From NCBI RefSeq assembly GCF_054482595.1, contig NZ_CM137008.1: 64,000 bases of DNA; one strand, written 5' to 3'. The translations under genes were made by a program, and so were the position numbers. Shown here in pieces: positions 1,030 through 64,000 of this stretch. Position 1 is the stretch's first letter; each line of letters starts with the position of its first letter. The notes under the pieces were generated by a model. That model searched no databases. It was not told the origin of the DNA and saw nothing but the letters and a program-made list of their open reading frames with translations.

Positions 1030-1106
<77 letters not shown>

Positions 1107-1139
1107 TCACCGTATTGCTTTTACTTCATCAAATTTGAT

Positions 1140-1216
<77 letters not shown>

Positions 1217-1249
1217 TCACCGTACTGCTTTACTTCATCAAATTTTAAT

Positions 1250-1326
<77 letters not shown>

Positions 1327-5811: not shown

Positions 5812-6017
5812 AAAAAAAAGCACCGCAATTAGGCGGTGCTACATTAATCACTATGGACAGACAGGGTAAATGTACAGGAAGTGAAAAAAGGTAGCTTTGC
5901 TACCATGGTCTGAATCGCAGACCAATTGCAAACACAACAACACAACATCACAACCGTAAGCCAAAAGTTCACCAGAACACGCATTCCGATAAAACTTTTC
6001 GTTCCGGCTCAGGAAGT
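5812..6017 (-). ncRNA. gcvB: GcvB small regulatory RNA
   Basis: Minus strand reads ACTTCCTGAGCCGGAACGAAAAGTTTTATCGG...GU-rich GTTGTGATGTTGTGTTGTTGTGTTTG...terminator hairpin plus U-run; divergent from gcvA. Confidence 0.88.
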
Positions 6018-42129: not shown

Positions 42130-43035
42130 TTACCAGCGGCCGGATGCGCCGCCACCTCCAGAAGAACCGCCCCCGCCGCTAAATCCGCCGCCACTTGAGC
42201 CTCCACCGGAAGAGGATGAAGAAGAACCTTTTCTTGAAGCTCTTTCTTTACTGAGTTTTTTGTATTTGGCGCGTAGCTTTTTATTGACGATAAGCCAAAA
42301 AATAACCAGTGGTACGATCGCAAAAGGCGTTAACATACCGCAGGCAACGATTAAATTGGTCCATGGTCCTGGCTCGGCAACATAGAGGAATACCATCCCG
42401 TAAATGGCGCCAGTGAGAGTGATCCAGGGTAAATTCGACGGATCGGTAAAAACAATAAAATATGAAAGTACCGCCAGCAATATAATTACAGCAAGCGATA
42501 ATGGAATAGGGGGATTGATACTGTAATAATCCCCCCTGTCTTCCGGTAATTCACCATTTAACAGAAGCGCGCCGATATTTTCGCTTGCCAGTGTTAATCC
42601 ACCCATCAGGTCATCACTTTTGAAGGCAGGGATCAATATATCCCTGATAATCTTCGCCGCTTGCAGGTCGGTAACCACCCCTTCCAGCCCGTAGCCAACC
42701 TCAATACGAACAGCATGATCCTCCCAGGCAACCAGAAGTAAAATACCATCGTTTCTCTGCTTATCTCCCAGTTTCCAGCTATCAAAAACCCTTGTAGCAT
42801 ATTGTTCAATGGAATCGTCTCCGGTGGACGGCACTACTAATACAGCGACCTGCGCCCGTGTTTTATGTGTAATATCCTGCAGTTGCTGTGTCAGTGATTG
42901 TTGTTCAGAAGTGCTTAACGTACCAGTAATATCGGTCACCTGTTGGCGCAGTTCCGGCACAGCAATTTGCTGGGCAAGCCCAGGAAGACACCACAAAGTG
43001 AATAGAATAAAGATTAAGCGCATTACGATCACCAA
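42130..43035 (-). CDS. TPM-domain membrane protein (YgcG-like), paralog 3 of a tandem triplet
   Basis: 301-aa ORF: signal peptide, TPM-type region (VAVLVVPSTGDDSIEQYATRVFDSWKLG...LLLVAWEDHAVRIEVGYGLEG), hydrophobic helices, Gly/Ser tail ending SGRW; start may be the internal Met at 43023. Confidence 0.75.
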   Translation of the reverse strand: MVIVMRLIFILFTLWCLPGLAQQIAVPELRQQVTDITGTLSTSEQQSLTQQLQDITHKTRAQVAVLVVPSTGDDSIEQYATRVFDSWKLGDKQRNDGILLLVAWEDHAVRIEVGYGLEGVVTDLQAAKIIRDILIPAFKSDDLMGGLTLASENIGALLLNGELPEDRGDYYSINPPIPLSLAVIILLAVLSYFIVFTDPSNLPWITLTGAIYGMVFLYVAEPGPWTNLIVACGMLTPFAIVPLVIFWLIVNKKLRAKYKKLSKERASRKGSSSSSSGGGSSGGGFSGGGGSSGGGGASGRW

Positions 43036-44177
43036 CGGCCGGATGAACCGCCGCCTCCTGAAGAACCGCCACCACCGCGGAAAGAATTTCTCGACGAAGA
43101 GCGAGAGTGAGCATTACGATTCCCCGTTTTCCTGTTGCTTTTTTCTCCTGATCCCAGCTTAAGATTGCCAGTAAATTTGGCCACAATGATCAGCAGAACG
43201 ATGCCAGCAATGGTTATTGGACCGATAAAATGATCAATTAACCCAATAATTGTTGAGATGAATGCAATATCTTTAATACTGGCGAACACCAGGCACCATC
43301 CCACAATAATTATCAGCATCACGACAAACAATGAATTTCGTCCTGATTCACGAACCTGCGGAGTCTTCTTTTGTTTTTTCACTTTAGCGTTTTTATTTTT
43401 TGGGGCCAGCATCATAGGAAATACGCGGCACAAATTAAAAACTACCGCGAGACGCTGCTTGCAGGTTGTTGCTAACAATAAACTAAAACAAACGATCGAC
43501 ACCCGCCGAATGATGACATCGTCCTGAAAGGAGAAAAACCAGACCATAGGGGTAATCATCGATATCATCCATATGCCACGCCGTGGGCGGCTGGCAAATC
43601 GCCAGAGGACAACGATGGCAACGATCATCAGCAGTGTCCAGGCAAGACATGGCAGCGAACGTTGCGGATTAGCAAACAGATGATTGGCTAAAGCATCCAA
43701 AGGGCTAAGGTTCGCTTTGATATGGGTAAACTGTGCGATGCTTTCAATTCCGCCCGTTAATCCAGCAAAGAGATTGTTTTTTTCGAATTCTGGCTGCATA
43801 TGGTAACGAACAATTTGCGCAGCTTGTTCCGGCGGCAACATCTGTTCCAGTCCATGTCCAATCTTCATTGACGCCAGCCCTTCCGGCCATACGACGAGAA
43901 TTAAGATACCTTCGCCATATCGCTTCTCTCCAACGGGTTTCCAGTGATATACCCCGTATCTCTGCGAGGCTGCAAGTTTAATGTTTTTGCCCCCTGTGGT
44001 CGGCGTAACCAACACGGCCACCTGGAAGTGGTTTTGCTGCTCGAGAGTCTGTAATTGTTGAGTTAAAGCAGTTTGTTCTTCTGTCGTTAATGTCCCGGTT
44101 AAGTCAGTCACTGAAGGCAATCGTTCAGCGAATACCTGAAAACCGCATAGCATCAGAAGTAAGAGAAAAATACGCAT
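43029..44177 (-). CDS. TPM-domain membrane protein, divergent paralog 2
   Basis: 382-aa ORF: signal peptide, TPM-type region (VAVLVTPTTGG...ILILVVWPEG...GHGLEQ), several hydrophobic helices, Lys-rich linker, Gly/Ser tail ending SGRW. Confidence 0.7.
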   Translation of the reverse strand: MRIFLLLLMLCGFQVFAERLPSVTDLTGTLTTEEQTALTQQLQTLEQQNHFQVAVLVTPTTGGKNIKLAASQRYGVYHWKPVGEKRYGEGILILVVWPEGLASMKIGHGLEQMLPPEQAAQIVRYHMQPEFEKNNLFAGLTGGIESIAQFTHIKANLSPLDALANHLFANPQRSLPCLAWTLLMIVAIVVLWRFASRPRRGIWMISMITPMVWFFSFQDDVIIRRVSIVCFSLLLATTCKQRLAVVFNLCRVFPMMLAPKNKNAKVKKQKKTPQVRESGRNSLFVVMLIIIVGWCLVFASIKDIAFISTIIGLIDHFIGPITIAGIVLLIIVAKFTGNLKLGSGEKSNRKTGNRNAHSRSSSRNSFRGGGGSSGGGGSSGRW

Positions 44178-44191
44178 ATCAATTCCTTTTG

Positions 44192-45115
44192 TTACCAGCG
44201 CCCGGAAGCGCCACCGCCACCAGATGAACCGCCACCACCGCTAAAATTGTCATTGTCGAATGAAGAGGATGACGATGATGAATAGTGGGAGAAAGAATTG
44301 CTTCTTGTATGGCGTGATGGCTGGTTGGCATCACGCATCAAATCCCGAACTTTTTTGCCGAAGGGGGTAAAAGCGATGGCGACAGCCAGGAACGGTGTGG
44401 CGAAGCAGAGTAATGTTGTGAGTACTCCCCAGCTTCCGCTGAAACCTGCTATAGGTAAAACAAAGGCCAGTACAATAGCTGCGAAGCAAATTACTCCCAG
44501 CGTTTTGATATATCCTCTGGCAGAAATAAACGTCAGTACTATCGCCCAGGCTAACAAGGCCCACCAACCGCTAAAAGGTAAAGGGTGATCGGCCGGTGCT
44601 ATCGTCGCTAAATTATTCCCTGCCAAACGGTTTTCAATATCGCTGAGTCCCTTTTGCAAGCCGCCAGCAAGATCACCATTTTTAAATGCCGGAATAATAC
44701 TGTTGCGAATAATTTGCCCGGACTGCGCATCCGTAATAATACCTTCCAGTCCGTAACCGATTTCAATACGCACGGTATGATCCTGCCAGGCGACTAACAG
44801 TAGAACGCCATCATCGCTGTCTTTATCACCCGGTTTCCAGCTATCGAATACCCGCGTTGCGTACTGCTCGATGGTTTCATCGCCTGTTGTATCAACCACT
44901 AACACGACCAACTGTGCGTGGTTTTTTTGCGTCAGGGCTTTAATCTGGTTGGTCAGGGTGTTTACTTCGCTGTTTGTTAATGTGCCGGTTAAGTCATTCA
45001 CATACTTGGGGGATTCAGGTACTGGAATTTGTGTGGCAAACACAGATGAACAGAAGAAAGCCATAAGGAAGATAAAATTTCGCACAGAACTTCCCCGCTT
45101 AATGAGCATTAGCAT
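44192..45115 (-). CDS. TPM-domain membrane protein, paralog 1
   Basis: 307-aa ORF very similar to 42130..43035 (LVVLVVDTTGDETIEQYATRVFDSWKPG...LLLVAWQDHTVRIEIGYGLEG), Gly/Ser tail ending SGRW; start codon ambiguous among the first Mets. Confidence 0.75.
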   Translation of the reverse strand: MLMLIKRGSSVRNFIFLMAFFCSSVFATQIPVPESPKYVNDLTGTLTNSEVNTLTNQIKALTQKNHAQLVVLVVDTTGDETIEQYATRVFDSWKPGDKDSDDGVLLLVAWQDHTVRIEIGYGLEGIITDAQSGQIIRNSIIPAFKNGDLAGGLQKGLSDIENRLAGNNLATIAPADHPLPFSGWWALLAWAIVLTFISARGYIKTLGVICFAAIVLAFVLPIAGFSGSWGVLTTLLCFATPFLAVAIAFTPFGKKVRDLMRDANQPSRHTRSNSFSHYSSSSSSSFDNDNFSGGGGSSGGGGASGRW

Positions 45116-45701
45116 TCTGGCTAAAATCTATTGTTGGGGCTTTACTTACTGCGGCGACATCATCCGGTAAATAATTTTTCTTTGGCGTGTAATCCATGAC
45201 CTTTGCGGTTAATACAGCGGGGAATTTGCGGATAGTGACATTATATTGTTCAATGGCTTTAATATATCTTCCTCGCGCAACGGCAATTCTATTTTCACTT
45301 CCTTCGAGCTGTACCATTAAGTTTTGATAGAGTTCCTGAGATTTTAACTCAGGGTAACGCTCACTAATTATCGTTAACTGACCGAGAGTGCGAGTCACCT
45401 GCGCTTGAGCCTGTTGCCAGGCTTGTAATTTTTGTTCATCTCCCGGAGTTTGCTGAAGATCGCTACTGGCGCGATTAGCCTGGCTACGAGCCAATGTTAC
45501 GGCTTCCAGTACATCTCGTTCATGGCTGGAATAACCTTTAATGCTGGCGACAAGATTAGGAATAAGATCGGCGCGACGTTGATATTGATTCAATACCTCA
45601 GACCAGGAGGCGTTAACCTGCTCATCATAGGTTTGAATATCGTTATATCCACAGCCTGATAAATTGAAAATAAATATAATTACGATGAATATTCTGAGCA
45701 T
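45099..45701 (-). CDS. LemA-family protein (predicted lipoprotein)
   Basis: 200-aa ORF; N-terminal hydrophobic segment with lipobox LSGC; LemA-like helical region; first gene of the operon. Confidence 0.75.
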   Translation of the reverse strand: MLRIFIVIIFIFNLSGCGYNDIQTYDEQVNASWSEVLNQYQRRADLIPNLVASIKGYSSHERDVLEAVTLARSQANRASSDLQQTPGDEQKLQAWQQAQAQVTRTLGQLTIISERYPELKSQELYQNLMVQLEGSENRIAVARGRYIKAIEQYNVTIRKFPAVLTAKVMDYTPKKNYLPDDVAAVSKAPTIDFSQNANAH

Positions 45702-45873: not shown

Positions 45874-46545
45874 ATGCAGTACCCGATTAACGAGATGTTC
45901 CAGACCCTGCAAGGTGAGGGTTACTTTACCGGCGTCCCCGCCATTTTTATTCGTTTACAGGGATGCCCGGTTGGCTGTGCCTGGTGCGACACCAAACACA
46001 CCTGGGAAAAGCTTGAGGATCGGGAAGTCTCCCTTTTCAGCATTCTGGCGAAGACCAAAGAGAGTGATAAGTGGGGGGCGGCGAGCAGTGAAGACTTGCT
46101 GGCTGTCATTGGTCGCCAGGGATATACCGCGCGGCATGTGGTGATTACGGGTGGTGAGCCTTGCATTCATGATTTGCTGCCACTGACTGACCTGCTCGAA
46201 AAGAACGGTTTTAGCTGCCAGATCGAAACCAGTGGTACTCATGAGGTACGCTGCACACCGAATACCTGGGTTACCGTATCGCCAAAGCTGAACATGCGCG
46301 GCGGCTATGAAGTGTTGTCACAGGCACTGGAGCGAGCCAACGAAATCAAGCATCCAGTGGGGCGCGTACGTGATATTGAAGCACTGGATGAACTTTTGGC
46401 GACGCTGACCGATGATAAACCGCGAGTCATTGCACTGCAGCCGATTAGCCAAAAGGATGATGCCACACGTTTGTGCATTGAAACCTGCATTGCGCGTAAT
46501 TGGCGTTTGTCGATGCAAACCCATAAATATTTAAATATTGCCTGA
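45874..46545 (+). CDS. queE: 7-carboxy-7-deazaguanine synthase (radical SAM)
   Basis: 223-aa ORF MQYPINEMFQTLQGEGYFTGVPAIFIRLQGCPVGCAWCDTK (CxxxCxxC variant cluster). Confidence 0.9.
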   Translation: MQYPINEMFQTLQGEGYFTGVPAIFIRLQGCPVGCAWCDTKHTWEKLEDREVSLFSILAKTKESDKWGAASSEDLLAVIGRQGYTARHVVITGGEPCIHDLLPLTDLLEKNGFSCQIETSGTHEVRCTPNTWVTVSPKLNMRGGYEVLSQALERANEIKHPVGRVRDIEALDELLATLTDDKPRVIALQPISQKDDATRLCIETCIARNWRLSMQTHKYLNIA

Positions 46546-46699
46546 TTAAACATTTATAAGCGTTATAAATGGGTGGAACCTGTAAAGACTTCTACTCATT
46601 TATATTCTTTGTCGTCTCTGAAAAACCTCCATTTTGCCCATCCTGAACTAATCATTATCATTCTCTACAAATTCTGTGGCGTTAATTTTTCGCTGGAGT

Positions 46700-46883
46700 G
46701 AAAATTATTGCGGTAAAGTTTGGTAGATTTTAGTTTGTATAGAGTTATTTTAAATATTTACCTTTTTAATCAATTGGTTAAGTGCTCTTTAACATAATGG
46801 ATGTGTTGTTTGTGTGATACTGTAAAGTTGGTAGATTGTGACTGGCTTAAAAAATCATTAATTAATAATAGGTTATGTTTAGA
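46700..46883 (+). promoter_or_regulatory. CRISPR leader (AT-rich), ending ...aataataggttatgtttaga before the first repeat
   Basis: AT-rich non-coding sequence directly upstream of repeat 1; the degenerate repeat lies at the opposite end of the array. Confidence 0.7.
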
Positions 46884-47339
46884 GAGTTCCCCGCGCCAGC
46901 GGGGATAAACCGGCCTGGCGATTTCTCGTCAGGCCTTGCGGTGTGAGTTCCCCGCGCCAGCGGGGATAAACCGTCAGTAAAGCGGCGCCCACTGATATCG
47001 GATTAGAGTTCCCCGCGCCAGCGGGGATAAACCGAGGGGCAGGGAGTGACGCTGGAGCAGGCGATCGAGTTCCCCGCGCCAGCGGGGATAAACCGGGAAA
47101 TTAGGCAAATGTGAACACGGCGGCCCCGAGTTCCCCGCGCCAGCGGGGATAAACCGCCAGTATTTTGTCGTGGATTGCGGGATCACCAGAGTTCCCCGCG
47201 CCAGCGGGGATAAACCGTTGAGTTTGTTCGTAACAACGCGGGTCATCTGGAGTTCCCCGCGGCAGCGGGGATAAACCGGGTACAAAAGAGGCCCCATTCT
47301 GGCAGGGCTCAAGTTCCCCGCGCCAGTGGGGATAAACCA
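46884..47339 (+). CRISPR. Type I-E CRISPR array: 8 repeats of 29 nt, 7 spacers of 32 nt, no adjacent cas genes
   Basis: Repeat GAGTTCCCCGCGCCAGCGGGGATAAACCG at 46884, 46945, 47006, 47067, 47128, 47189, 47250 (one C-to-G variant) and degenerate terminal repeat aagttccccgcgccagtggggataaacca at 47311; exact 61-nt period. Confidence 0.95.
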
Positions 47340-47809
47340 CCATATAACCCGTTATCTCTTTCTCAAGTTTTTATATTAGCAGTACTCGTAATAAGCAACA
47401 TATCCACGTAACACCTCATGTTCAAAATAGTTCCCCATGCCAGATAAGTTCACAATTATCGATACAAAAAATCAAATTTAATCAAAGTGTTATTTGTATA
47501 ATCCTTAAACCGTTAAGAAATTTTAATGTATTATTTTTTTTAATATTAATTAATGCCTGTTAATTTTTTCTTTAGAATAACAGTGTGTTTTTTAAGCTTG
47601 TTATTCATTGATTAAGTAATAAATCTGGAAATTTGTCTTTGTTTTGAGGCTAATGAGTGGTTTTACATAACCGCCTCTATACGCTGTTGATGAATGGTTC
47701 TTATGAATAAAGATATCCAGTTCATACTTTAAGTGTAAATTGATAAAGTGCGATTCGTATTGTCTTTTATTCTAAAGACATCGAGTGTAGTTAATATTCC
47801 TTGTAAAAA

Positions 47810-47932
47810 CAGGGATAAACCGAACTAGTTAAAGTTTTTATTATGTTCCCTGCATCAGCGGGGATAAACCGGACTTGTTATCATTTTTTAAGTTGTCGAA
47901 CTTATGTTCCCCGCGTCAGCGGGGATAACCAT
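47810..47932 (+). CRISPR. Degenerate remnant CRISPR array (partial repeat, 2 degenerate repeats, one 32-nt spacer)
   Basis: cagggataaaccg (47810..47822), atgttccctgcatcagcggggataaaccg (47843..47871), 32-nt spacer, atgttccccgcgtcagcggggataaccat (47904..47932); a further repeat fragment agttccccatgccag lies near 47429. Confidence 0.75.
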
Positions 47933-47977
47933 TCAGGTATGTTCAGGCCGGGCTGTTTCCCGCCCGGCCTTCCTCAC

Positions 47978-49456
47978 TTACGCATTCGACCAGCTCTGGA
48001 TCGAATCCGCATTTCCCAATTCCCCATGCATCACTTCATACGATTTTTTCAGAATCACATCAGTATGTTTGGTTAGGTCTTTGAAAATGCCTTTATTCAT
48101 CGCGTCGTAGCGTTTGGCATTGCTCTCAATCGGTATAAAGATATCTTTCACGCGAACCATTTTATCGACAGCCGTTGCGTAATCCGGGTATAGCCCCAGA
48201 CCTACCGCTGTATTAATCGCTGCCCCCAGGCTTGCACAACCGTTAATGGCGTTACGTCGTGCCGGAAGGTTGAACACGTCGGCAAAAATCTGCATAAACA
48301 GATCGCTGTTCGAACCGCCGCCAGTAATGATTACATGCTTCGCAAAGTGATTCATTTCATTACACATATTGTCGTAATTGTTCTTCAGCGTCAGCGCCAC
48401 GCTTTCCAGTATCGAACGATATATCCATGCGTAATCCATGCTGGAATCAAAGCCGATCATAATCCCGCGTTTGTACGGTTCCCACGGATTGGTCAGCCAG
48501 TCCAGCACCGTCATCAGCCCATTACAGCCAGGTGGCACACTAGAGGCTTTCTTGTTGAGTAAATCTTCCGGTGAAAGATCCTGCGCCCTGGCATCCTGAA
48601 TTAACGACTCGCCTAACATGTCGCGCAGCCAGCTCACCGTCCACATGCCTTTGCGAATACCGTAACCTTCATACAGCAATGTTTGCGGAATAGAAGACAT
48701 AATCGGCCAGTACGCCACCGGATCTTTCGGCAAGGCTTTGCCGTTCATCATCAATGCGATGTAAGTGCCAAGAGAAATTACCGCAGTTTCATCATCCAGT
48801 AATCCGGCCCCCAGAGCTTCTACCGGTTTATCACTGGTGGTACAAACAACCGGCAGTCCTGCCGGGAAATGTGTCGCCAGTGCGGCTTGTGGTGTGATCT
48901 GTCCAAGGACGGTGCCAGGCATTTGCACATCAAACAGCATATGACGGGGGATATTAAACTTATCCATTACCGCAGCATCTTCACTCCATGCCCAGGTCTT
49001 ATAATCCACCGGCCACTGACCAAAATAGTTGGCGATATTGTCTTTAAACTCGCCGGTTAAGCGATGCGTCAGATAACCCGAAAAAGAGGTGACATAGGCC
49101 ACGTCAGGATTAGTGTGTTCGTAGGGACGCGTTACGCGTGCATCCTGCCAGCTAATCAATGGCGCAGCTGGCGTGCCATCGGCTTTCAATAACGCACGGC
49201 AGCAACGGATGGATCCCAGACCAATACCGACAATATCTTCTTTATTCCCGGCAAACTGACTCATCAAATCGTGACCGGCAAAACATAATGATGCCCATAA
49301 ATCGTCGTCAGGATGTTCTGCGGTATCGGCATCTGGCGTGTGCATCGGCTGCAATAAACCTTTGCCTTCGCAAACCACGTTACCTTCCAGATCGTACATC
49401 ACCACTTTTGTGCTCTGACTTCCGCCATCAATCCCTATGATGTATTTCTTCGACAT
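47978..49456 (-). CDS. ygcE: FGGY-family carbohydrate kinase
   Basis: 492-aa ORF MSKKYIIGIDGGSQSTKVVMYD; FGGY N- and C-terminal domains. Confidence 0.85.
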   Translation of the reverse strand: MSKKYIIGIDGGSQSTKVVMYDLEGNVVCEGKGLLQPMHTPDADTAEHPDDDLWASLCFAGHDLMSQFAGNKEDIVGIGLGSIRCCRALLKADGTPAAPLISWQDARVTRPYEHTNPDVAYVTSFSGYLTHRLTGEFKDNIANYFGQWPVDYKTWAWSEDAAVMDKFNIPRHMLFDVQMPGTVLGQITPQAALATHFPAGLPVVCTTSDKPVEALGAGLLDDETAVISLGTYIALMMNGKALPKDPVAYWPIMSSIPQTLLYEGYGIRKGMWTVSWLRDMLGESLIQDARAQDLSPEDLLNKKASSVPPGCNGLMTVLDWLTNPWEPYKRGIMIGFDSSMDYAWIYRSILESVALTLKNNYDNMCNEMNHFAKHVIITGGGSNSDLFMQIFADVFNLPARRNAINGCASLGAAINTAVGLGLYPDYATAVDKMVRVKDIFIPIESNAKRYDAMNKGIFKDLTKHTDVILKKSYEVMHGELGNADSIQSWSNA

Positions 49457-63822: not shown

Positions 63823-64000
63823 TTATTTTGCGAGCAGCATTCCTGATTTTAAACGTGAACGCCGCTGGAAGAATTATCAGGTATAGAATGGCGTCGGGTG
63901 CTTGAGGCTGTCTGGCGTTAAGCATTCGCGAGGTTCCAGATGGACAAAAGCCCCAGGCGATATTTCTATCAACCTGAGGCTCGCGTTCGAACGTAGCAAT

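What the first reader, a model, noticed from the sequence alone, without database searches (positions are those of the whole stretch)
46700..47339. Orphan type I-E CRISPR array (7 spacers) with intact leader, about 16 kb from the expected cas locus
Eight 29-nt repeats with exact 61-nt periodicity and a degenerate terminal repeat; the leader is on the queE side. No cas genes lie within the window; from the K-12 map they are expected just beyond cysH. Spacers for protospacer searching: S1 gcctggcgatttctcgtcaggccttgcggtgt; S2 tcagtaaagcggcgcccactgatatcggatta; S3 aggggcagggagtgacgctggagcaggcgatc; S4 ggaaattaggcaaatgtgaacacggcggcccc; S5 ccagtattttgtcgtggattgcgggatcacca; S6 ttgagtttgttcgtaacaacgcgggtcatctg; S7 ggtacaaaagaggccccattctggcagggctc.
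Basis: seen in the sequence. Interest (0 to 1): 0.5.

Follow-up and report, generated by a model that had tools for sequence, protein, structure and literature searches.

The report
E. coli second CRISPR array (CRISPR2.3)
This is the well-known second CRISPR array of the Escherichia coli type I-E immune system, sitting between queE and ygcE about 17 kb from its cas genes; it is real and carries memories of prophages and F-type plasmids, but it is ordinary.

Summary
A 338-bp, 30% GC leader lies on the queE side.

This is the canonical E. coli CRISPR-II locus (array CRISPR2.3). A vestigial CRISPR2.2 array lies 0.5 kb further on, at 47794-47932.

The window differs by 4 bases in 64 kb from strain XH990. 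In that genome cas3 starts 131 bp past the window end, 16.8 kb from the array, followed by casABCDE, cas1, cas2 and the CRISPR2.1 array. "Orphan" therefore holds only in the positional sense.

In all five relatives examined that carry this array, cas1e has the same 1-nt deletion. Spacer uptake is probably dead in this lineage, and the array is a frozen memory.

Three spacers have identifiable targets, each with a correct AWG PAM:
- S2 matches 32/32 (ATG) a lambdoid prophage in 442 mostly ST131-type genomes and 11 IMG/VR viral contigs.
- S5 matches 31/32 (AAG) a lambdoid prophage.
- S7 matches 29/32 (ATG) traD of F-like plasmids.

No self-target was found. The locus is already known and of low interest.

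The parts
45874..46545 (+). queE (ygcF), the gene flanking the leader side of the CRISPR-II locus
   Evidence: 223-aa ORF; annotated queE in XH990
46546..46883 (+). Leader 2.3: AT-rich (29.9% GC) sequence upstream of the first repeat
   Evidence: GC content. 13 differences from K-12 over 339 aligned columns, only one (46822) within 100 bp of the repeat. Literature places the promoter and the Cas1-Cas2 integration signals here (PMC3737337, PMC3903273). The simple sigma-70 scan gave no site above chance.
46884..47339 (+). CRISPR2.3 array: 8 repeats of 29 nt and 7 spacers of 32 nt, period 61
   Evidence: annotated 'CRISPR' at the same bases in XH990
46913..46944 (+). Spacer S1 (leader-proximal, newest). 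No convincing target found.
   Evidence: No hit in phages, plasmids or IMG/VR. One 28/32 chromosomal match with an AAA flank, E=2, was dismissed. S1 is also the first spacer of the same locus in strain Res13-Sevr-PER07-33.
46974..47005 (+). Spacer S2: targets a lambdoid prophage (LprI-family gene)
   Evidence: 32/32 match with ATG PAM in 442 E. coli chromosomes (456 hits minus the 14 array bearers), including JJ1886 and O25b:H4-ST131 strains. The site lies inside a prophage with integrase, Q antiterminator, holin, terminase and portal genes. Also 11 IMG/VR viral contigs, all 32/32 with ATG.
47035..47066 (+). Spacer S3. No target found; the same spacer occurs in cas-adjacent CRISPR2.1 arrays of other strains.
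47096..47127 (+). Spacer S4. No target found; the same spacer occurs in cas-adjacent CRISPR2.1 arrays of other strains.
47157..47188 (+). Spacer S5: targets a lambdoid prophage (DUF1133 gene next to ninG)
   Evidence: 31/32 match (mismatch at position 22) with canonical AAG PAM in STEC384 and STEC379
47218..47249 (+). Spacer S6. No target found.
47250..47278 (+). Repeat R7, variant with C13 to G in the hairpin loop
   Evidence: Same fold and energy as the consensus repeat. The same variant precedes S7 in O145 RM9872 and Res13 arrays.
47279..47310 (+). Spacer S7 (oldest anchor spacer): targets traD of F-like conjugative plasmids
   Evidence: 29/32 match with ATG PAM in 4,680 PLSDB plasmids including F itself. 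Mismatches are at spacer positions 14, 18 and 30; two of the three are synonymous third-codon positions in traD. S7 is the last spacer at the same locus in O145 and Res13 strains.
47311..47339 (+). Terminal degenerate repeat R8 (AAGTTCCCCGCGCCAGTGGGGATAAACCA)
   Evidence: It still folds as a 7-bp stem with one G-U pair, -13.2 kcal/mol.
47428..47451 (+). Decayed repeat relic (TAGTTCCCCATGCCAG..ATAAG), about two periods beyond R8
   Evidence: Read directly from the sequence; also present with small differences in K-12
47794..47932 (+). Vestigial CRISPR2.2 array: three degenerate repeats (47794, 47843, 47904) with 20-nt and 32-nt spacers and no leader of its own
   Evidence: 100% identical to K-12. 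All three units still fold as a 7-bp stem plus tetraloop. The nomenclature, and the statement that leaders adjoin only CRISPR2.1 and CRISPR2.3, come from PMC3903273.
47978..49456 (-). ygcE, the gene flanking the far side of the CRISPR-II locus
   Evidence: 492-aa ORF; annotated ygcE in XH990

Best explanation
This is the CRISPR2.3 array of the E. coli CRISPR-II locus (queE/ygcF to ygcE). It is the second array of the chromosomal type I-E CRISPR-Cas system.

Inferred mechanism, from the K-12 and BL21 literature:
- A promoter in the AT-rich leader transcribes the array from left to right.
- Cas6e, encoded 16.8 kb away, cuts each repeat at the 3' base of its 7-bp hairpin. This gives 61-nt crRNAs with an AUAAACCG 5' handle.
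- These crRNAs load into Cascade (CasA-E).
- Cascade recognises DNA carrying an AWG PAM and recruits Cas3.

In this clonal lineage the interference genes are annotated as intact, but cas1e carries a 1-nt deletion that truncates it after about 158 residues. New spacers can therefore no longer be added, and the array is a frozen record. Its readable memories are two lambdoid prophages (S2, S5) and F-like conjugative plasmids (S7). As in other E. coli, the cas operon is probably H-NS-silenced under laboratory conditions.
For: Shown here:
- Anatomy and significance of the repeats.
- All repeats, including the variant R7 and the degenerate R8, keep the 7-bp stem and tetraloop.
- The leader is about 96% identical to the K-12 leader 2.3, and the flanking genes are the same.
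- The window differs from XH990 at 4 of 64,000 bases.
- XH990, THO-010, W619, Santai and APEC37 all have cas3, casA, casB, cas7e, cas5e, cas6e, cas1e (frameshifted), cas2e and CRISPR2.1 next to cysH.
- The cas3-to-cas2 stretch of XH990 is 97.8% identical to K-12. The cas1 alleles of the five relatives are identical, with a deletion at nt 441.
- Their CRISPR2.1 arrays differ only by internal duplications and deletions, with no new leader-end spacer.
- 3 of 3 identified protospacers carry ATG or AAG immediately 5' of the protospacer, in the orientation predicted by the leader.

From the literature:
- CRISPR-II lies away from cas and has a conserved leader (PMC3903273).
- The BL21-AI CRISPR2.3 leader supports spacer integration in trans (PMC3737337).
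- E. coli spacers mostly target prophages, and the system is H-NS-repressed (PMC10910852).
Against: - The cas operon and the cas1 frameshift lie outside the window. They are inferred from near-identical genomes, not seen in the source genome.
- No expression or processing data are available.
- The consensus promoter scan found nothing above chance in the leader.
- Four of the seven spacers have no known target.
- The S7-traD match has three mismatches and a database E-value of only 0.1 before the PAM and the codon pattern are considered.
Confidence: 0.9

Rival explanations
1. Functionally inert relic. The array is a fossil of past immunity with no present role, because the cas operon is silenced and cas1 is broken.
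For: cas1e is frameshifted in 5 of 5 relatives. The array is identical in 14 genomes from different hosts and countries. CRISPR2.1 arrays change only by duplication or deletion. E. coli I-E is described as H-NS-repressed with stable arrays (PMC10910852).
Against: cas3, casA-E and cas2 are annotated as intact ORFs. All repeat hairpins are preserved. In the searches run on the 5,426 complete genomes, S2 and S5 turned up in a lineage genome only inside the array itself. This fits the anti-prophage interference proposed in PMC10910852.
Confidence: 0.25
2. True orphan array: the source genome has no type I-E cas genes at all, as in phylogroup B2 strains or BL21.
For: No cas gene lies within the 64-kb window (read against the window coordinates).
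Against: The window differs at 4 of 64,000 bases from XH990 and by 1 base in its last 25 kb from six complete genomes. The three of these whose cas region was examined (XH990, THO-010, W619) have cas3 beginning 131 bp past the point where the window ends.
Confidence: 0.03
3. The spacers act on the host's own genome, as self-targeting or regulatory crRNAs, rather than on mobile elements.
For: None found.
Against: No spacer matches elsewhere in the window at up to 8 mismatches. XH990 shows one place only, the array itself, for all seven spacers by megablast and for S1, S3, S4, S5 and S6 by blastn. The S2 blastn search found no extra place attributable to a lineage genome. Three spacers map to prophage or plasmid genes with correct PAMs.
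Confidence: 0.03
4. Not a CRISPR array: a chance or other repeat family (REP/BIME, coding repeat), or an array of another subtype such as I-F.
For: Rfam 15 reports no CRISPR family here. Two ORFs of 80-112 aa on the minus strand overlap the array.
Against: The exact 61-nt period with unique spacers has 0 matches expected by chance. The repeat is identical to the K-12 I-E repeat apart from the known A/T variant (PMC3737337). RefSeq annotates it as CRISPR. The PAMs are of the I-E type.
Confidence: 0.01

Closest known systems
E. coli K-12 MG1655 CRISPR-II locus (CRISPR2.3 plus CRISPR2.2, between ygcE and ygcF/queE)
   Same: Same flanking genes, orientation and leader (about 96% identical). Same terminal degenerate repeat and downstream sequence. 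Identical CRISPR2.2 vestige. Same distance class to the cas operon.
   Different: 7 spacers instead of 6, and none is shared with K-12. Repeats are the 'A' variant (GAGTT...), whereas K-12 has the 'T' variant (GTGTT...) at this locus (PMC3737337).
BL21-AI CRISPR2.3 array, the standard substrate for Cas1-Cas2 spacer-acquisition assays
   Same: Same locus and leader family. An array used in trans by Cas proteins supplied from elsewhere (PMC3737337).
   Different: By PMC3737337 the CRISPR2.1 locus of BL21 derivatives is a repeat array only; that BL21 lacks cas genes altogether rests on my own knowledge. The lineage here has a full operon with only cas1 broken.
CRISPR2.3 arrays of E. coli O145 RM9872 and strain Res13-Sevr-PER07-33
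   Same: They share the anchor module R7(G13)-S7-R8 at the same locus. Res13 also shares S1 as its first spacer.
   Different: The internal spacers differ, and those arrays have only 4 spacers.
Orphan (isolated) CRISPR arrays in general
   Same: Not adjacent to cas genes.
   Different: A cognate cas operon of the same subtype lies 16.8 kb away in the same chromosome of near-identical genomes. The array is a conserved, named part of that system.

Membership tests
Type I-E CRISPR array (E. coli 'type 2' repeats) | 29-nt repeat matching the E. coli I-E consensus, with 32-nt spacers and a 61-nt period | tested here: met
   Six identical repeats and two variants with an exact 61-nt period. 28 of 29 bases identical to the K-12 repeat, differing at the known A/T position.
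Type I-E CRISPR array (E. coli 'type 2' repeats) | Repeat RNA forms the stable stem-loop recognised and cut by Cas6e | tested here: met
   7-bp stem plus tetraloop, -15.1 kcal/mol, z = -3.6. It is retained in R7 and R8. The fold is predicted only; cleavage was not tested.
Type I-E CRISPR array (E. coli 'type 2' repeats) | AT-rich leader upstream of the first repeat, homologous to the functional leader 2.3 | tested here: met
   29.9% GC against 50.7% for the window. 13 differences from K-12 in 339 columns, with 1 in the proximal 100 bp.
Type I-E CRISPR array (E. coli 'type 2' repeats) | Protospacers flanked 5' by an AWG (AAG/ATG) PAM, whose G corresponds to the last repeat base | tested here: met
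   S2 ATG, S5 AAG, S7 ATG: 3 of 3. That AAG and ATG are the E. coli I-E PAMs rests on established knowledge, not on a tool result.
Type I-E CRISPR array (E. coli 'type 2' repeats) | Cognate cas3, cse1, cse2, cas7, cas5, cas6e, cas1 and cas2 in the same genome | tested here: inconclusive
   Not in the window. Present in five genomes carrying the identical array, with cas3 starting 131 bp beyond the window-end equivalent, but cas1e is frameshifted in all five. The source genome itself could not be read past position 64000.
Type I-E CRISPR array (E. coli 'type 2' repeats) | Transcription and processing into crRNAs; interference in vivo | not testable with these tools
   No expression data are available, and the promoter scan was uninformative.
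E. coli CRISPR-II locus / CRISPR2.3 | Located between ygcE and ygcF (queE), leader next to queE, with CRISPR2.2 0.5 kb away | tested here: met
   queE 45874-46545, array 46884-47339, CRISPR2.2 vestige 47794-47932, ygcE 47978-49456. Definition from PMC3903273.
Orphan array in the strict sense (no cognate cas genes in the genome) | Absence of cas genes of the matching subtype from the genome | tested here: not met
   The five examined genomes with this array, out of 14 that carry it, have the I-E operon 16.8 kb away.

The most novel reading that the evidence does not exclude
The array is a frozen but still usable memory. This lineage lost cas1 yet keeps intact Cascade and Cas3. Its crRNAs S2, S5 and S7 could then act as a standing barrier to an ST131-type lambdoid prophage and to IncF plasmids. 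S7's mismatches at positions 18 and 30 fall on the every-sixth bases that Cascade does not pair, so only position 14 would be a true mismatch. Separately, S3 and S4 are adjacent here but occur singly in the cas-adjacent CRISPR2.1 arrays of about 200 other genomes. This could reflect spacer movement between the two loci by recombination rather than repeated independent acquisition.
Probability: 0.15. Interest if true: 0.3.

Novelty: already known. Interest (0 to 1): 0.1.

Why it matters
It matters little beyond correct annotation. The locus is one of the best-studied CRISPR arrays and is annotated as CRISPR in RefSeq genomes with the same sequence. The modest added value is strain-level:
- a spacer set usable for typing this clonal lineage (14 complete genomes share it exactly);
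- evidence that adaptation is genetically dead (cas1 frameshift) while the interference genes remain intact;
- three assigned targets that fit the published view that E. coli spacers mainly record temperate phages and plasmids.

Tried and rejected
- Rfam, at gathering thresholds and again at E<=1 over 46500-48000, gave no CRISPR family. The only hit was a chance Chlorobi-1 match at 17.9 bits. This says nothing about the array.
- The sigma-70 and terminator scan of 46400-48100 gave counts no higher than shuffles, so the leader promoter could not be placed.
- INPHARED phages: no credible hit for any spacer, best E=0.1-5.
- IMG/VR scans of the PAM-proximal 23 nt, with N at every sixth base, found nothing for S1, S3, S4 or S6. 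The same design found S2 in 11 contigs, so the method works.
- S1's 28/32 match beside tRNA-Ile in strain A30 has an AAA flank and E=2, and was dismissed as chance.
- I tried to check whether relatives carry an IncF plasmid bearing the S7 target by guessing neighbouring accession numbers. One belonged to another strain (XH993), one was absent from the collection, and one was an IncHI2 plasmid. The question stays open.
- Two ORFs on the minus strand overlap the array. I read them as artefacts of the GC-rich repeats.

Full report
**Observation**

The + strand between 46884 and 47339 holds eight copies of a 29-nt repeat, GAGTTCCCCGCGCCAGCGGGGATAAACCG. They start exactly 61 nt apart and are separated by seven unique 32-nt spacers. 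A 26-nt repeat core allowing three mismatches occurs 10 times in the 64-kb window, against none in 100 dinucleotide-preserving shuffles.

Repeats 1-6 are identical. R7 has one change, C13 to G. R8 is the usual degenerate terminal repeat (AAGTTCCCCGCGCCAGTGGGGATAAACCA).

The leader extends from the queE stop codon at 46545 to 46883 and is 29.9% GC, against 50.7% for the window.

**What it is**

The window is E. coli core chromosome running from amiC to cysH. It differs from strain XH990 (NZ_CP019359.1) at only 4 of 64,000 positions. The last 25 kb match six complete genomes with a single mismatch each.

The array lies between queE (ygcF) and ygcE. The literature calls this the CRISPR-II locus. 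The leader-bearing array next to ygcF is CRISPR2.3, and a second small array, CRISPR2.2, may lie 0.5 kb away (PMC3903273; PMC10910852). The window shows exactly this layout:
- Three degenerate repeats at 47794, 47843 and 47904 form the CRISPR2.2 vestige. It is 100% identical to K-12.
- A further decayed repeat fragment sits at 47428-47451.

The leader differs from the K-12 leader 2.3 at 13 of 339 aligned columns, and only one difference is within 100 bp of the first repeat. None of the seven spacers is shared with K-12. The repeats are the 'A' variant, whereas K-12 has 'T' at base 2 (PMC3737337). RefSeq annotates the same 456 bp as CRISPR in XH990.

**Where the cas genes are**

In XH990, cas3 starts at record position 1,091,923. 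That is 131 bp beyond the position equivalent to window base 64000, and 16,792 bp from the end of the array. After cas3 come casA, casB, cas7e, cas5e, cas6e, cas1e, cas2e, a CRISPR2.1 array and iap. THO-010, W619, Santai and APEC37 carry the identical CRISPR2.3 region and have the same arrangement. The cas3-to-cas2 stretch of XH990 is 97.8% identical to that of K-12.

'Orphan' is correct only as 'not adjacent'. This is a named, conserved component of the I-E system, and only CRISPR1 has adjacent cas genes in E. coli (PMC10910852).

**A lineage-specific detail outside the window**

In all five relatives, cas1e is annotated as frameshifted. The five alleles are identical, 917 nt long, and lack the A at nt 441 relative to K-12. 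Translation stops after about 158 residues. From my own knowledge of E. coli Cas1, the later active-site residues (H208, D221) lie beyond that point.

The CRISPR2.1 arrays of the five relatives contain the same spacers. They differ only by internal duplications and deletions, and all begin with the same leader-proximal spacer. Together with the identity of the CRISPR2.3 region in 14 genomes from humans, pigs, poultry and a duck in several countries, this indicates that spacer uptake has stopped and the arrays are frozen. This is inferred for the window's own genome. It is a strong inference given the 4 differences in 64 kb.

**Spacer targets**

All seven spacers were searched as one N-separated query against 50,697 phage records and 72,556 plasmids by blastn, and against 5,426 complete E. 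coli genomes by megablast. Follow-up blastn searches used S1+S5+S6, S3+S4 and S2. Pattern scans of IMG/VR were also run.

- **S2** matches 32/32 in 456 genomes. Fourteen of these are the array itself. The other 442 carry the sequence in a gene annotated 'lysozyme inhibitor LprI family protein'.
  - In strain Ecol_AZ153 that gene lies in a lambdoid prophage integrated beside tRNA-Leu downstream of pgsA. The prophage has integrase, replication, Q antiterminator, holin, terminase and portal genes.
  - Carriers include JJ1886 and O25b:H4-ST131 strains.
  - Eleven IMG/VR viral contigs carry the same 32/32 match.
  - In every case examined the three bases 5' of the protospacer are ATG.
- **S5** matches 31/32 (mismatch at position 22), preceded by AAG. 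The site is in a DUF1133 gene next to ninG and the lysis genes of a lambdoid prophage in STEC384 and STEC379.
- **S7**, the oldest spacer, matches 29/32 in traD of 4,680 F-like plasmids including F itself, preceded by ATG.
  - The mismatches are at spacer positions 14, 18 and 30.
  - The protospacer starts in codon phase, so positions 18 and 30 are synonymous third positions and position 14 changes Asp to Ala. That pattern is what a diverged traD allele would give, not a chance hit.
  - Positions 18 and 30 are also among the every-sixth bases that Cascade does not pair (established knowledge).
  - The database E-value alone is 0.1. The PAM and the codon pattern make the match credible.
- **S1, S3, S4 and S6** have no target in any collection searched.

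Three of three identified targets having an AWG PAM on the correct side independently confirms the array's orientation and subtype. No self-target was seen in the window at up to 8 mismatches or in the XH990 chromosome.

**Comparison of spacer order**

R7(G13)-S7-R8 is an anchor module. It is shared at the same locus with O145 RM9872 and with strain Res13-Sevr-PER07-33, and the latter also has S1 as its first spacer.

S3 and S4 are adjacent here. In about 200 other genomes they occur singly, never together, and every sampled hit was annotated as CRISPR. In the two genomes examined the host array is the cas-adjacent CRISPR2.1. This points either to repeated acquisition from an unsampled common invader or to recombination between the two loci. 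I did not resolve which.

**Mechanism**

Shown here:
- the anatomy of the array;
- the predicted 7-bp stem and tetraloop in every repeat, including R7 (loop change only) and R8 (one G-U pair);
- leader conservation;
- cas genes in near-identical genomes;
- PAM-flanked targets.

Inferred from the K-12 and BL21 literature:
- transcription from a promoter in the leader;
- Cas6e cleavage giving 61-nt crRNAs;
- Cascade loading and Cas3 recruitment;
- H-NS silencing under laboratory conditions (PMC3903273, PMC3737337, PMC10910852).

My consensus promoter scan was uninformative, and Rfam holds no matching family.

**Verdict**

The finding is real and correctly interpreted, and it is already known. 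The only additions are strain-level: the vestigial CRISPR2.2, the frozen state implied by the cas1 frameshift, and targets for three spacers. These targets agree with the published conclusion that E. coli spacers mostly target prophages (PMC10910852). Interest is low.

Noticed in passing
window 47794-47932: Vestigial CRISPR2.2 array: three degenerate repeats with 20-nt and 32-nt spacers, 100% identical to K-12. All three still fold as a 7-bp stem plus tetraloop. The first unit keeps the stem through two double (compensatory) changes, C-G to U-A, and one G-U pair.
   Followed up: partly
window 47428-47451: A further decayed repeat fragment (TAGTTCCCCATGCCAG..ATAAG, missing the CGGGG arm) lies about two periods beyond the terminal repeat. 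It suggests the array once extended further. It is also present in K-12 with small differences.
   Followed up: no
L001 31371-32287 (XH990 cas1e); also L005, L006, L007, L008: cas1e has an identical 1-nt deletion at nt 441 in all five relatives that carry this array, truncating the protein after about 158 aa. The other cas genes are annotated as intact.
   Followed up: yes
L001 32679-33805 and the CRISPR2.1 arrays of L005-L008: The cas-adjacent CRISPR2.1 arrays of the relatives have 12 to 19 repeats. They contain the same spacers and vary only by internal tandem duplications (for example spacers 6-7 and 16-18 duplicated in XH990) and deletions. None has a new leader-end spacer.
   Followed up: yes
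L010 1501-1532 (strain 005008) and L011 1501-1532 (ECONIH1): Spacers S3 and S4 of the window's CRISPR2.3 array occur, one or the other but never both, in about 200 other genomes. In the two genomes examined the host array is the cas-adjacent CRISPR2.1. Independent acquisition or inter-locus recombination could explain this.
   Followed up: partly
L003 2239-30032 (Ecol_AZ153): The S2 target sits in a lambdoid prophage integrated next to the tRNA Gly-Cys-Leu cluster downstream of pgsA. The protospacer is present in 442 complete E. coli genomes, including ST131 strains such as JJ1886.
   Followed up: partly
window 63896-64000: Rfam 'sok' antitoxin RNA match (67.5 bits), cut by the window end. It lies between cysH and the position where cas3 starts in relatives, and corresponds to sokX in K-12.
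   Followed up: no
window about 42130-45701: Between eno and queE lies a minus-strand cluster of two TPM-domain genes, a truncated TPM-domain pseudogene and a LemA-family gene. K-12 has yqcG and ygcG at this position.
   Followed up: no
window 1030-1326, 5812-6017, 24198-24557: Ordinary core-genome RNA genes: three tandem tRNA-Met genes, GcvB and CsrB.
   Followed up: no
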